Assembly: GCF_003334765.1 (NCBI RefSeq)
Contig: NZ_QOWT01000007.1
Reading direction: 5' to 3' (one strand)
From: Escherichia coli
GTDB taxonomy: Bacteria > Pseudomonadota > Gammaproteobacteria > Enterobacterales > Enterobacteriaceae
DNA: 64,000 bases
Shown here: in pieces, positions 59,093 through 64,000 of the stretch
Numbering within the stretch: the first letter of the stretch is position 1
Layout of the letters: the number at the start of each line of letters is the position of its first letter
The notes under the pieces: model-generated
Database searches by the model: none
Seen by the model: only the letters and a program-made list of their open reading frames with translations
What the model was told of the DNA's origin: nothing
Position numbers and translations under genes: made by a program

Positions 59093-59683
59093 ATGATCAC
59101 CGTTGCCCTTATAGACGATCACCTCATCGTCCGCTCCGGCTTTGCGCAGCTGCTGGGGCTGGAACCTGATTTGCAGGTAGTTGCCGAGTTTGGTTCGGGG
59201 CGCGAGGCGCTGGCGGGGCTGCCGGGGCGCGGTGTGCAGGTGTGTATTTGCGATATCTCCATGCCCGATATCTCCGGTCTGGAGCTGCTAAGCCAGCTGC
59301 CGAAAGGTATGGCGACGATTATGCTCTCCGTTCACGACAGTCCTGCGCTGGTTGAGCAGGCGCTTAACGCGGGGGCACGCGGCTTTCTTTCCAAACGCTG
59401 TAGCCCGGATGAACTCATTGCTGCGGTGCATACGGTTGCCACGGGCGGCTGTTATCTGACGCCGGATATTGCCATTAAACTGGCATCCGGTCGTCAGGAC
59501 CCGCTAACCAAACGTGAACGCCAGGTGGCGGAAAAACTGGCGCAAGGAATGGCGGTGAAAGAGATTGCCGCCGAACTGGGCTTGTCACCGAAAACGGTAC
59601 ACGTCCATCGCGCCAATCTGATGGAAAAACTGGGCGTCAGTAACGACGTAGAGCTGGCGCGCCGCATGTTTGATGGCTGGTGA
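59093..59683 (+). CDS. uhpA: response regulator UhpA (NarL/LuxR family)
   Basis: 196-aa ORF with receiver domain and C-terminal LuxR HTH. Confidence 0.93.
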
Positions 59684-61185
59684 TGAAGACGTTGTTCTCC
59701 CGCTTAATTACCGTTATTGCCTGCTTTTTTATCTTCTCTGCCGCATGGTTTTGCCTGTGGAGTATCAGCCTGCATCTGGTTGAGCGCCCTGATATGGCGG
59801 TGCTGTTATTTCCGTTTGGTCTGCGTCTGGGGCTAATGCTGCAATGCCCGCGCGGATACTGGCCCGTATTGCTGGGCGCGGAGTGGCTGCTGATTTACTG
59901 GCTAACGCAGGCGGTCGGTTTAACCCATTTTCCGTTATTGATGATCGGTAGTTTACTGACGTTACTGCCCGTAGCGCTGATCTCGCGCTATCGCCATCAG
60001 CGTGACTGGCGCACCTTGCTGTTACAGGGGGCGGCGTTAACGGCGGCGGCGTTGTTGCAGTCGCTGCCCTGGCTTTGGCACGGCAAAGAGTCGTGGAATG
60101 CGCTGTTGCTGACTTTAACTGGCGGCCTGACGCTGGCCCCGATATGTCTGGTGTTCTGGCACTATCTCGCCAATAACACCTGGCTGCCGCTCGGTCCGTC
60201 ACTGGTTTCTCAGCCAATCAACTGGCGCGGGCGACATCTGGTCTGGTACTTGCTGCTGTTTGTTATCAGTCTCTGGCTCCAGTTGGGATTGCCGGACGAA
60301 CTGTCGCGCTTTACGCCATTCTGTCTGGCGCTGCCGATTATCGCGCTGGCCTGGCACTATGGTTGGCAAGGGGCGCTGATTGCGACGTTGATGAACGCCA
60401 TCGCGCTGATCGCCAGTCAAACCTGGCGCGATCATCCGGTGGATTTATTGCTCTCGCTGCTGGTGCAAAGTCTGACAGGGTTGTTGCTTGGCGCTGGCAT
60501 CCAGCGGTTGCGTGAACTTAACCAGTCGCTGCAAAAGGAACTGGCGCGCAATCAGCATCTGGCTGAACGGTTGCTGGAAACCGAAGAGAGCGTGCGCCGT
60601 GATGTGGCGCGTGAGCTGCATGATGATATCGGTCAGACCATCACTGCTATTCGTACTCAGGCGGGCATTGTTCAGCGGCTGGCGGCAGATAACGCCAGCG
60701 TGAAGCAGAGCGGGCAGCTCATCGAACAACTATCGCTGGGCGTTTACGACGCGGTGCGCCGTTTGTTGGGTCGGTTACGTCCGCGCCAGTTGGATGATCT
60801 CACCCTGGAGCAGGCCATCCGCTCACTGATGCGGGAAATGGAGCTGGAAGGGCGCGGTATTGTCAGCCATCTCGAATGGCGAATCGATGAATCAGCGTTA
60901 AGCGAAAACCAGCGCGTGACGCTGTTTCGTGTCTGCCAGGAAGGGCTGAACAACATTGTGAAACATGCTGATGCCAGCGCGGTCACCCTGCAAGGCTGGC
61001 AGCAGGATGAACGGTTGATGCTGGTTATTGAAGACGATGGCAGCGGTTTGCCGCCGGGTTCCGGGCAACAAGGTTTTGGCCTCACCGGAATGCGCGAGCG
61101 CGTAACGGCGCTGGGTGGCACATTACACATTTCCTGTCTGCACGGCACGCGTGTCAGCGTTTCTCTACCTCAACGCTATGTCTAA
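59683..61185 (+). CDS. uhpB: sensor histidine kinase UhpB
   Basis: 500-aa product [11 protein letters not shown]...; ATG overlaps uhpA stop; membrane N-terminus and C-terminal kinase domain. Confidence 0.9.
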
Positions 61186-61194
61186 GGTTTGATG

Positions 61195-62514
61195 ATGTTG
61201 CCGTTTCTGAAAGCGCCTGCCGATGCGCCATTAATGACTGATAAATATGAAATTGATGCCCGCTATCGCTACTGGCGTCGGCATATTCTGCTGACCATCT
61301 GGCTGGGTTACGCGCTGTTTTACTTCACGCGGAAAAGTTTTAACGCCGCCGTACCAGAAATCCTTGCTAACGGCGTGCTCAGCCGTAGCGATATCGGCCT
61401 GTTAGCGACCCTGTTTTACATTACCTATGGCGTGTCGAAGTTTGTCTCCGGCATTGTCAGCGATCGCTCAAATGCCCGTTATTTTATGGGGATAGGGCTT
61501 ATCGCCACGGGCATTATCAACATTCTGTTTGGCTTCTCGACGTCGCTATGGGCGTTTGCCGTGCTCTGGGTGCTGAACGCCTTTTTCCAGGGCTGGGGTT
61601 CACCGGTGTGTGCGCGTCTGTTAACGGCCTGGTATTCACGTACCGAGCGCGGCGGTTGGTGGGCATTATGGAACACGGCGCATAACGTCGGCGGCGCACT
61701 CATTCCCATTGTGATGGCAGCGGCTGCGCTGCATTACGGCTGGCGTGCCGGGATGATGATTGCTGGTTGTATGGCGATAGTCGTGGGGATTTTTCTCTGC
61801 TGGCGGCTACGCGATCGCCCGCAGGCGTTAGGTTTACCGGCGGTCGGTGAATGGCGACACGACGCGCTGGAAATTGCTCAACAACAAGAAGGGGCAGGGT
61901 TGACGCGTAAAGAGATCCTCACCAAATATGTGTTGCTGAATCCGTATATCTGGCTGCTTTCGTTTTGCTATGTGCTGGTCTATGTGGTCCGGGCGGCGAT
62001 CAACGACTGGGGCAATTTGTATATGTCCGAGACACTGGGCGTCGATCTGGTCACGGCGAATACGGCAGTGACGATGTTTGAACTGGGCGGATTTATCGGT
62101 GCGCTGGTAGCCGGTTGGGGCTCGGACAAATTGTTTAACGGCAACCGAGGGCCGATGAATTTGATTTTCGCCGCCGGAATTTTGCTTTCAGTCGGCTCCC
62201 TGTGGCTGATGCCATTTGCCAGCTACGTGATGCAGGCAACCTGCTTCTTCACCATTGGTTTTTTTGTCTTTGGCCCACAGATGTTAATCGGTATGGCGGC
62301 GGCAGAGTGTTCCCACAAAGAGGCGGCAGGGGCGGCGACGGGGTTTGTCGGCTTGTTTGCTTATCTGGGGGCGTCGCTTGCTGGTTGGCCGCTGGCGAAA
62401 GTACTCGATACCTGGCACTGGAGCGGATTTTTTGTGGTTATCTCTATCGCCGCCGGGATTTCCGCACTGCTGTTACTGCCCTTTTTGAACGCCCAGACAC
62501 CGCGCGAAGCGTGA
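61195..62514 (+). CDS. uhpC: MFS-type glucose-6-phosphate sensor protein UhpC
   Basis: 439-aa product MLPFLKAPADAPLMTDKYEID...; paralogous to uhpT. Confidence 0.88.
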   Translation: MLPFLKAPADAPLMTDKYEIDARYRYWRRHILLTIWLGYALFYFTRKSFNAAVPEILANGVLSRSDIGLLATLFYITYGVSKFVSGIVSDRSNARYFMGIGLIATGIINILFGFSTSLWAFAVLWVLNAFFQGWGSPVCARLLTAWYSRTERGGWWALWNTAHNVGGALIPIVMAAAALHYGWRAGMMIAGCMAIVVGIFLCWRLRDRPQALGLPAVGEWRHDALEIAQQQEGAGLTRKEILTKYVLLNPYIWLLSFCYVLVYVVRAAINDWGNLYMSETLGVDLVTANTAVTMFELGGFIGALVAGWGSDKLFNGNRGPMNLIFAAGILLSVGSLWLMPFASYVMQATCFFTIGFFVFGPQMLIGMAAAECSHKEAAGAATGFVGLFAYLGASLAGWPLAKVLDTWHWSGFFVVISIAAGISALLLLPFLNAQTPREA

Positions 62515-62538
62515 TGCATCTCACCTTTTCACTTCATA

Positions 62539-62574
62539 TCCGGCAAAACTAAGAAATTTTCCAGGTTTTGCCTG
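62539..62574. promoter_or_regulatory. candidate UhpA-binding inverted repeat in uhpT promoter
   Basis: ggcaaaac (62541-62548) / gttttgcc (62564-71) inverted repeat about 35-70 bp upstream of candidate -10 tacaat at 62609-62614. Confidence 0.5.
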
Positions 62575-62651
62575 GACGCTATCTCAGGCCTGATTTGCTG
62601 CTGATTTTTACAATGCATGCCTCACGCAGGTATTCATTTCAGGAGTAACCC

Positions 62652-64000
62652 ATGCTGGCTTTCTTAAACCAGGTTCGCAAGCCGACCCTGGACCTTCCGC
62701 TCGAAGTGCGGCGCAAAATGTGGTTCAAACCGTTCATGCAATCCTACCTGGTGGTCTTTATCGGCTACCTGACGATGTACCTGATTCGCAAGAACTTTAA
62801 CATCGCGCAGAACGATATGATTTCGACCTACGGGTTGAGCATGACGCAGCTGGGGATGATCGGCCTGGGTTTCTCCATCACTTATGGCGTGGGTAAAACG
62901 CTGGTTTCCTACTACGCCGACGGCAAAAACACCAAACAATTCCTGCCGTTCATGCTGATCCTCTCTGCTATTTGTATGCTGGGCTTCAGTGCCAGTATGG
63001 GCAGCGGCTCGGTTAGCCTGTTCCTGATGATTGCCTTCTACGCCTTAAGCGGCTTTTTCCAGAGTACCGGCGGTTCGTGCAGTTACTCCACCATCACCAA
63101 ATGGACGCCGCGTCGTAAACGCGGGACATTCCTCGGTTTCTGGAATATTTCTCACAACCTTGGCGGTGCAGGCGCAGCAGGTGTGGCGCTGTTCGGGGCA
63201 AATTACCTGTTCGATGGCCATGTCATCGGCATGTTTATCTTCCCGTCGATTATCGCGCTGATTGTCGGTTTTATCGGCCTGCGTTACGGCAGCGACTCCC
63301 CGGAATCTTATGGCCTCGGCAAAGCTGAAGAACTGTTCGGCGAGGAGATCAGCGAAGAGGACAAAGAGACAGAATCTACCGATATGACCAAGTGGCAGAT
63401 CTTTGTTGAGTATGTGCTGAAAAACAAAGTGATCTGGCTGCTGTGCTTCGCCAACATTTTCCTCTATGTGGTACGTATTGGTATCGACCAGTGGTCAACC
63501 GTATACGCGTTCCAGGAACTGAAACTCTCTAAAGCGGTGGCGATTCAGGGCTTTACGCTGTTTGAAGCTGGTGCGCTGGTCGGTACGCTGCTGTGGGGCT
63601 GGCTCTCTGACCTGGCGAACGGTCGCCGTGGCCTGGTGGCCTGCATCGCGCTGGCGCTGATTATCGCCACGCTCGGTGTGTATCAACATGCCAGTAACGA
63701 ATATATCTATCTGGCTTCTCTCTTTGCGTTGGGTTTCCTGGTCTTTGGCCCGCAATTGTTGATTGGTGTGGCTGCTGTTGGCTTTGTACCTAAAAAAGCG
63801 ATTGGCGCTGCCGATGGTATTAAAGGCACCTTTGCTTACCTGATTGGTGACAGCTTTGCCAAGTTAGGTCTGGGAATGATTGCCGATGGGACGCCGGTAT
63901 TCGGCCTTACCGGCTGGGCAGGCACCTTCGCCGCGCTGGATATCGCCGCGATTGGTTGTATCTGCCTGATGGCGATAGTGGCGGTAATGGAAGAACGCAA
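62652..64000 (+). CDS. uhpT: hexose-6-phosphate:phosphate antiporter UhpT, N-terminal ~449 codons (3' end outside window)
   Basis: ATG at 62652 after RBS aggagt; open frame [25 protein letters not shown]... runs to window end; not in ORF track because no stop in window. Confidence 0.93.

What the first reader, a model, noticed from the sequence alone, without database searches (positions are those of the whole stretch)
62515..62651. uhpT promoter with inverted repeat at the expected UhpA-binding position
ggcaaaac / gttttgcc inverted repeat (62541-62571) lies about 35-70 bp upstream of a tacaat -10 (62609-62614), matching where the response regulator UhpA is expected to act on the uhpT promoter.
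Basis: partly seen in the sequence, partly recalled or inferred. Interest (0 to 1): 0.2.

Follow-up and report, generated by a model that had tools for sequence, protein, structure and literature searches.

The report
Known UhpA site in uhpT promoter
This is the long-studied control region of the E. coli sugar-phosphate transporter gene uhpT, and the inverted repeat is the main docking site already mapped for its activator UhpA, so the finding is correct but ordinary.

Summary
TACAAT is at 62609-62614. The stretch is the uhpC-uhpT intergenic region of E. coli, and a 60-nt piece of it is at least 99% identical in 5115 of 5417 complete genomes.

The repeat is the outer part of a 31-nt near-palindrome centred at 62557. 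With the start site inferred at 62621, that centre is -64, the published "strong" UhpA region.

In 79 orthologous promoters from about 25 genera, all elements sit at fixed spacing:
- the CRP site (centre 62517.5, about -103.5);
- the dyad at -64;
- a second dyad at 62579 (-42, the "weak" UhpA region);
- the -10 hexamer.

An RNA-hairpin or terminator reading is not supported. The verdict is already known, with low interest.

One side observation is unexplained. A hairpin overlapping the -10 hexamer and start site (62612-62638) is kept by compensatory changes across genera.

The parts
59093..59683 (+). uhpA, response regulator (activator that acts on the site)
   Evidence: ORF list. Pfam Response_reg 1.2e-24 + GerE 1.6e-22. 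Annotated uhpA in an identical E. coli record.
59680..61185 (+). uhpB, sensor kinase/phosphatase
   Evidence: ORF list; RefSeq annotation of the identical locus.
61189..62514 (+). uhpC, glucose-6-phosphate receptor. The ORF is as listed; the RefSeq start is a few codons further in. The stop codon TGA is at 62512-62514.
62507..62528 (.). CRP (CAP) site: cGTGA 62510-62514 / TCACc 62521-62525, centre 62517.5. It overlaps the uhpC stop codon.
   Evidence: Read directly. GTGA and TCAC have 1.1-1.7 bits per column across 78 distinct orthologous promoters, and the GTGA-to-core distance is 34 in 74 of 78. The literature places CRP at -103 upstream of the UhpA site (PMC5352689).
62542..62572 (.). Strong UhpA site: 31-nt near-palindrome GGCAAAACTAAGAAA-T-TTTCCAGGTTTTGCC with its dyad at 62557 (inferred -64).
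   Evidence: the repeat finder I1. Conservation of 62545-62568. Symmetric pairs k=1-4 and 8-11 are complementary in 73-100% of rows. Unique in the window.
62571..62589 (.). Weak UhpA site: CCTGGAcgctaTCTCAGGC with its dyad at 62579 (inferred -42). It reaches the -35 region.
   Evidence: Conserved at 1.1-2.0 bits at most columns. Same dyad geometry as the strong site: k=3 A-T 95%, k=4 G-C 100%, k=8 C-G 92%. Half-site table. The literature describes a downstream weak site (PMC4790336).
62601..62608 (+). Conserved spacer CTGATTTT just upstream of the -10 hexamer. There is no recognisable -35 hexamer.
   Evidence: 1.1-2.0 bits. The promoter scan finds no -35/-10 pair.
62609..62614 (+). -10 hexamer TACAAT
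   Evidence: Present in all 78 distinct rows, 64 nt after the core start in 77 and 65 nt in the one row with a 1-nt shift.
62621..62621 (+). Inferred transcription start (+/- 1). Not measured here.
   Evidence: Inference: it lies 7 nt after the hexamer, and it equals the CRP centre 62517.5 + 103.5. The CRP position is taken from PMC5352689 and from recollection of Merkel et al. 1995.
62641..62645 (+). Shine-Dalgarno AGGAG of uhpT
   Evidence: Read directly; conserved CAGGAG in orthologous leaders.
62652..64000 (+). uhpT coding sequence (runs off the window)

Best explanation
The repeat is the strong UhpA-binding site (the '-64 element') of the E. coli uhpT promoter.

Proposed mechanism:
- External glucose-6-phosphate, sensed through UhpC and UhpB, leads to phosphorylation of UhpA, a NarL/LuxR-type response regulator.
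- A UhpA dimer occupies the dyad at 62557. Its two inverted half-sites, CTAAGA and CCTGGA, fit C-Y-N-R-G-A.
- Phosphorylation-enhanced cooperative binding then fills a second dyad of the same geometry 22 bp (two helical turns) downstream, at 62579. That dyad abuts the missing -35 region.
- From there UhpA recruits RNA polymerase to the TACAAT -10 hexamer.
- CRP-cAMP bound at 62507-62528 boosts this but cannot act alone.

Shown here: the gene context, the anatomy, the fixed spacing, the conservation of each element and the shared half-site pattern.

Taken from the literature or inferred: UhpA occupancy, the order of filling, the polymerase contacts and the exact start site.
For: Context:
- The window is 100% identical to E. 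coli chromosomes, with uhpC and uhpT flanking the stretch. The gene order is ilvBN-uhpABCT.
- UhpA has a receiver + GerE HTH architecture.

Anatomy and chance:
- The repeat and its extension to a 31-nt palindrome are confirmed.
- The 12/15 palindrome arises in 0.18% of shuffles.
- The dyad pattern is unique in the 64 kb.

Comparison with 79 orthologous uhpT upstream regions, from Escherichia to Dickeya and Aeromonas, which stack without gaps:
- The columns 62545-62568, 62571-62589 and 62601-62615, and the CRP half-sites, are the conserved blocks. 62590-62600 and 62531-62544 are variable.
- The core-to-TACAAT distance is identical in 77 of 78 rows. The CRP-to-core distance is identical in 74 of 78.
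- Both dyads share invariant G (k4), A (k3) and C (k8). Pooled over the four half-sites the frequencies are C 0.96, Y 1.00, R 0.99, G 1.00, A 0.98.
- Distant genera exchange the CTARG and CCGGG forms between the left and right half-sites. Aeromonas has a perfect GAACTAGGAA-AAA-TTCCTAGTTC.

Within E. coli, the 60-nt stretch holding both dyads is at least 99% identical in 5115 of 5417 genomes.

Literature:
- UhpA binds an upstream strong and a downstream weak region, and phosphorylation stimulates binding (PMC4790336).
- CRP is centred at -103, upstream of the UhpA site, and UhpA is essential (PMC5352689).
- With CRP at -103.5, the start site, the -10 hexamer (-12 to -7), the dyad (-64) and the second dyad (-42) all fall into register.
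Against: - No binding experiment can be done here.
- The primary footprinting and mutational papers could not be read. The exact footprint limits (-80/-50/-32) and the published half-site consensus therefore rest on my recollection.
- The start site is inferred, not measured.
The perfect 8/8 repeat occurs in only 6 of 80 rows, all Escherichia or Salmonella.
Confidence: 0.93

Rival explanations
1. The repeat works as an RNA hairpin in transcripts reading out of uhpC. It would act as a terminator or 3'-end stabiliser of uhpABC mRNA rather than, or in addition to, a protein-binding site.
For: If transcribed, 62536-62580 folds to -16 kcal/mol, with z = -3.75 against shuffles. It lies 28 nt after the uhpC stop codon. 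One pair (62544/62570) alternates C-G and U-A among genera.
Against: - No U-run follows the stem, and the scan finds no + strand terminator here.
- On 72 distinct orthologues, 70.6% of cells are paired against 69.8% in shuffles.
- The covariation score of 0.034 lies within the range of the slid controls, 0.017-0.062.
- The would-be loop (62550-62564) is more conserved than the outer stem, the opposite of what an RNA hairpin shows.
- No Rfam family matches.
Confidence: 0.04
2. The repeat is the site of a different regulator, for example FNR or another LuxR-type protein, and UhpA acts elsewhere.
For: PMC5352689 reports a gel shift of the uhpT upstream fragment by FNR, and a modest effect of fnr on expression.
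Against: - The same paper saw no specific FNR footprint.
- The half-sites do not resemble TTGAT-N4-ATCAA (read directly).
- The site co-occurs with uhpT in every genus sampled, at fixed spacing.
- The literature assigns this position to UhpA.
Confidence: 0.02
3. It is a chance palindrome with no function.
For: A perfect 8-nt inverted repeat with a spacer of up to 30 arises in 4.8% of shuffles of this 137-nt stretch.
Against: The core is nearly invariant and sits at fixed spacing across about 25 genera, while the neighbouring intergenic columns vary. The extended palindrome arises in only 0.18% of shuffles.
Confidence: 0.01

Closest known systems
E. coli K-12 uhpT promoter: the UhpA strong (-80 to -50, '-64 element') and weak (-50 to -32) regions, with the CAP site at -103.5. 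Source: the Kadner laboratory, 1992-2002; paper titles seen.
   Same: It is the same locus. The flanking genes are uhpC and uhpT. The order is CRP site, strong site, weak site, -10 hexamer. All published positions fall into register with a start site at 62621.
   Different: Nothing of substance differs. The cross-genus comparison adds three points. The perfect outer 8-mer symmetry is confined to Escherichia and Salmonella. Both regions are dyads of the same geometry, 22 bp apart. The four half-sites share C-Y-N-R-G-A.
NarL/NarP '7-2-7' heptamer sites and other GerE/LuxR-type response-regulator operators (established knowledge)
   Same: The regulator has the same architecture, receiver + GerE HTH. 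Dimers sit on inverted repeats, and several sites of graded affinity are filled on phosphorylation.
   Different: The half-site sequence is C-Y-N-R-G-A rather than TACYYMT. The conserved hexamers are separated by 5 bp (G-to-C distance 8 bp) rather than arranged as 7-2-7.
CRP-dependent promoters that need a second, regulon-specific activator ('class III' type)
   Same: There is a distal CRP site more than 90 bp upstream that cannot activate alone, with the specific activator bound between CRP and RNA polymerase (PMC5352689).
   Different: Here the CRP site overlaps the stop codon of the upstream gene uhpC.

Membership tests
uhpT promoter, strong UhpA site (-64 element) | Lies in the uhpC-uhpT intergenic region, upstream of uhpT on the same strand. 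| tested here: met
   (RefSeq annotation of identical E. coli DNA); ORFs.
uhpT promoter, strong UhpA site (-64 element) | Dyad centred about 64 bp upstream of the transcription start (52 bp upstream of the -10 hexamer). | tested here: met
   The dyad at 62557 and TACAAT at 62609 establish the 52-bp distance. The -64 figure depends on the start site at 62621, which is inferred from the CRP position and from the hexamer. The start site was not measured.
uhpT promoter, strong UhpA site (-64 element) | Flanked by a CRP site about 40 bp upstream and a second, weaker UhpA region immediately downstream that reaches the -35 region. | tested here: met
   The CRP half-sites are centred at 62517.5 and the second dyad at 62579, both conserved at fixed spacing. 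The arrangement is described in PMC4790336 and PMC5352689.
uhpT promoter, strong UhpA site (-64 element) | The cognate regulator UhpA (receiver + LuxR/GerE HTH) is encoded in the locus. | tested here: met
uhpT promoter, strong UhpA site (-64 element) | Conserved in orthologous uhpT promoters. | tested here: met
   79 loci from about 25 genera: the core 62545-62568 has 0.8-2.0 bits per column. At least 99% identical in 5115 of 5417 E. coli genomes.
uhpT promoter, strong UhpA site (-64 element) | Protected by (phospho-)UhpA in footprints and required for glucose-6-phosphate induction. | not testable with these tools
   Experimental. The primary papers are not held. Secondary statements appear.
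Intrinsic (Rho-independent) terminator | A G+C-rich stem-loop followed directly by a U-run on the transcribed strand. | tested here: not met
   A stem can form, but it is followed by CUGGACGC. No + strand terminator-like site was found at this place.
Structured RNA element | Base pairs maintained by compensatory changes across orthologues. | tested here: not met
   70.6% of cells paired against 69.8% in shuffles; the covariation score lies within the range of the slid controls. No Rfam match.
NarL-type 7-2-7 heptamer site | Inverted TACYYMT heptamers separated by 2 bp. | tested here: not met
   The half-sites are CTAAGA / CCTGGA with 5 bp between the hexamers. The comparison with the NarL consensus is from established knowledge.

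The most novel reading that the evidence does not exclude

It is a hairpin-forming palindrome overlapping the -10 hexamer and the start site. In the window the arms are 62612-62622 and 62628-62638. In most other genera it reads G-CCTGC-CATTC-GCAGG-T directly after TACAAT.

Pairing is kept by different sequences in different genera: Pantoea CAGC/GCTG, a Cedecea-like group GTCGAC/GTCGAT, Enterobacter GCTG/CAGC, and Escherichia with a relocated left arm. One position is commonly a G-U pair.

The inferred start site lies inside the hairpin. Only RNA reading through from uhpC would contain both arms. The structure could mark or stabilise the 3' end of uhpABC transcripts, or insulate uhpT from read-through.
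Probability: 0.25. Interest if true: 0.35.

Novelty: already known. Interest (0 to 1): 0.08.

Why it matters
uhpT is the inducible hexose-phosphate importer. It is also one of the two entry routes of fosfomycin, so its promoter matters for resistance and for glucose-6-phosphate reporters. This site has been dissected experimentally since the 1990s, and the finding adds no new biology.

The cross-genus comparison made here has modest practical value:
- It gives a clean map of which promoter bases are constrained: C-Y-N-R-G-A half-sites at two dyads 22 bp apart, with fixed spacing to the CRP site and the -10 hexamer.
- That map could help interpret promoter mutations in fosfomycin-resistant isolates.

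Tried and rejected
- **Primary papers.** The footprint and mutagenesis papers (PubMed 11976297 and 1569008; PMC135017, PMC94613, PMC176797) are not held. Exact footprint limits could not be checked against text.
- **Secondary literature.** Searches for papers quoting positions gave only general statements (papers read).
- **Promoter scan.** The sigma-70 scan finds nothing at this place, because there is no -35 hexamer. This fits an activator-dependent promoter and is not evidence against one.
- **Minus-strand terminator-like hit.** The hit at 62576-62560 was rejected. No gene is transcribed on that strand, and the stem is simply the CCAGG/CCTGG pair of two adjacent UhpA half-sites.
- **RNA-hairpin reading of the repeat.** Tested and rejected.
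- **W-site symmetry.** Dyad centres at 62579.5 and 62580 were tried. Centre 62579 reproduces the geometry of the strong site.
- **RNAalifold on the start-site hairpin.** It returned no structure because of gappy columns. The pairs were counted by hand-given structure instead.

Full report
**What is in the sequence**

The stretch 62515-62651 lies between the stop codon of a 441-codon ORF (61189-62514) and an ATG at 62652. A 501-nt query across it is 100% identical to many E. coli chromosomes. It matches 5417 of 5426 complete genomes, and the flanking genes are annotated uhpC and uhpT. The wider order is ilvB-ilvN-uhpA-uhpB-uhpC-uhpT-adeD.

GGCAAAAC lies at 62542-62549 and GTTTTGCC at 62565-62572, one base to the right of the coordinates given. 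TACAAT is exactly at 62609-62614. The repeat finder extends the repeat inward to a 31-nt near-palindrome, GGCAAAACTAAGAAA-T-TTTCCAGGTTTTGCC. It has 12 of 15 pairs complementary and its centre at 62557.

**Chance**

- A perfect 8-nt inverted repeat with a spacer of up to 30 nt appears in 4.8% of dinucleotide shuffles of the 137-nt stretch. That alone is weak evidence.
- The 12/15 palindrome appears in only 0.18% of shuffles.
- The conserved dyad pattern occurs once in the 64-kb window even with up to 2 mismatches allowed, where 0.03 is expected.

**Comparison with orthologues**

A scan of one genome per species with the UhpT protein returned 80 loci, from Escherichia, Salmonella, Citrobacter, Klebsiella, Enterobacter, Kluyvera, Raoultella, Buttiauxella, Cedecea, Lelliottia, Leclercia, Pantoea, Rouxiella, Brenneria, Dickeya and one Aeromonas. 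Anchored on the core, 79 upstream regions stack without a single gap from the CRP site to the -10 hexamer.

Four blocks are conserved:
- GTGA / TCAC with its T-run (62511-62530);
- 62545-62568;
- 62571-62589;
- CTGATTTTTACAATG (62601-62615).

The columns between the blocks vary. The distance from the core to TACAAT is the same in 77 of 78 distinct rows. The distance from GTGA to the core is the same in 74 of 78. Within E. coli, a 60-nt piece holding both UhpA regions is at least 99% identical in 5115 of 5417 genomes.

**Anatomy of the UhpA region**

About the centre 62557, symmetric pairs 1-4 and 8-11 are complementary in 73-100% of rows. Pairs 5-7 are asymmetric. The perfect 8/8 repeat is found in 6 of 80 rows, all Escherichia or Salmonella.

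A second dyad with the same geometry is centred at 62579. There, k=3 is A-T in 95% of rows, k=4 is G-C in 100% and k=8 is C-G in 92%.

Read towards their dyads, the four half-sites are CTAAGA, CCTGGA, CCTGGA and CTGAGA in the window. Pooled over all rows they give C 0.96, Y 1.00, N, R 0.99, G 1.00, A 0.98. The two dyads are 22 bp apart, about two helical turns. In distant genera the left and right half-sites swap between the CTARG and CCGGG forms, and Aeromonas carries a perfect palindrome. That is what one protein recognising a degenerate half-site would produce.

**Register with the literature**

Two papers held here bear on the layout:
- PMC5352689 states that CRP binds an inverted repeat centred at -103, upstream of the UhpA site, and that UhpA is indispensable.
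- PMC4790336 states that UhpA binds an upstream strong and a downstream weak region, that phosphorylation stimulates binding, and that CRP has a single site upstream of them.

The CRP half-sites here are centred at 62517.5. Placing that at -103.5 (the value I recall from Merkel et al. 1995) puts +1 at 62621. This gives:
- TACAAT at -12 to -7;
- the first dyad at -64;
- the 31-nt palindrome at -79 to -49;
- the second dyad at -42, with its conserved block at -50 to -32.

These coincide with the limits I recall for the strong (-80 to -50) and weak (-50 to -32) regions. I could not read those primary papers, so this last step is marked as recollection.

UhpA itself (59093-59683) has a receiver domain and a GerE/LuxR HTH. 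That is the family that binds inverted repeats as dimers. No -35 hexamer is detectable, as expected for a promoter that depends wholly on an activator bound next to -35.

**Mechanism**

1. Glucose-6-phosphate outside the cell acts through UhpC and UhpB to phosphorylate UhpA.
2. A UhpA dimer sits on the -64 dyad.
3. Phosphorylation-dependent cooperative binding extends to the -42 dyad.
4. UhpA at -42 contacts RNA polymerase in place of a -35 element.
5. CRP at -103.5 enhances the process.

The anatomy, spacing and conservation are shown here. Occupancy, cooperativity and polymerase contacts come from the literature or are inferred.

**Rivals**

As RNA, the repeat would fold well: -16 kcal/mol, z = -3.75. 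Four results argue against an RNA role:
- No U-run follows the stem.
- Across 72 distinct orthologues the pairs are no better kept than in shuffles, 70.6% against 69.8%, and covariation is within the slid controls.
- The "loop" is more conserved than the outer stem.
- Rfam has no match.

A role for another regulator such as FNR has only a gel shift without a footprint behind it. Chance is excluded by the conservation.

**Side observations**

- *Hairpin at the start site.* A palindrome overlaps the -10 hexamer and the inferred start site, at 62612-62638 in the window. In other genera it reads G-CCTGC-CATTC-GCAGG-T directly after TACAAT. Pairing is kept by different sequences. On 33 distinct rows, 86.8% of cells are paired against 81.4% in shuffles (0 of 500 shuffles reach it). 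The covariation score is 0.225 against 0.138 in shuffles and at most 0.062 in slid controls. Eleven cells are changed on both sides, and one position is commonly G-U. The inferred start lies inside it, so uhpT mRNA would lack the left arm. Its role is unexplained. The structure was also derived from these same sequences, which flatters the counts.
- *Repeat element in the leader.* In four species the uhpT leader carries a 65-77 nt insertion of a dispersed repeat, ERIC-like by my recollection. It gives sub-threshold Rfam matches to Ysr49 and V_AS5.
- *CRP site and stop codon.* The CRP site overlaps the uhpC stop codon.

**Verdict**

This is the textbook uhpT promoter, already known, and of low interest.

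Noticed in passing
window 62612-62638 (arms 62612-62622 / 62628-62638); same place in L004-L079: A hairpin-forming palindrome overlaps the -10 hexamer and the inferred start site. Pairing is kept across genera by different sequences, with compensatory changes and G-U pairs (86.8% paired; covariation 0.225 against 0.138 in shuffles). E. albertii has a perfect 11-bp version. The inferred start site lies inside it, so only read-through RNA from uhpC would hold both arms. Its function is unexplained.
   Followed up: partly
L001 and L002 (Escherichia sp. E1V33, E. whittamii), L037 (Raoultella terrigena), L042 (Enterobacter sp. 10-1): between TACAAT and the uhpT ATG, e.g. L042 2403-2514: A 65-77 nt insertion in the uhpT leader (...AAGTTGCAGGAAGGCGGCAA...CTTGAAGTATGA...). 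By my recollection it looks like a short ERIC/IRU-type dispersed repeat. It gives sub-threshold Rfam matches to Ysr49 (39.9 bits) and V_AS5. It is absent from the window.
   Followed up: partly
window 62510-62525: The CRP site of the uhpT promoter overlaps the uhpC stop codon: TGA at 62512-62514 is part of the GTGA half-site. The last codons of uhpC are therefore constrained by a downstream promoter. The arrangement is conserved in nearly all 79 orthologues.
   Followed up: partly
window 62601-62608: The spacer CTGATTTT directly upstream of the -10 hexamer is about as conserved as the hexamer itself (1.1-2.0 bits). It is not a TG-type extended -10, and the reason for the constraint was not examined.
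   Followed up: no
window 62509-62519 and 62617-62627: An 11-nt inverted repeat, 10 of 11 complementary, links the left half of the CRP site (GCGTGATGCAT) with the start-site region (ATGCCTCACGC), 97 nt apart (I4). The start-site sequence differs in other genera, so it is probably chance.
   Followed up: no
window 59680-59683: The uhpB GTG start overlaps the uhpA stop codon by 4 nt. This fits translational coupling within uhpABC.
   Followed up: no
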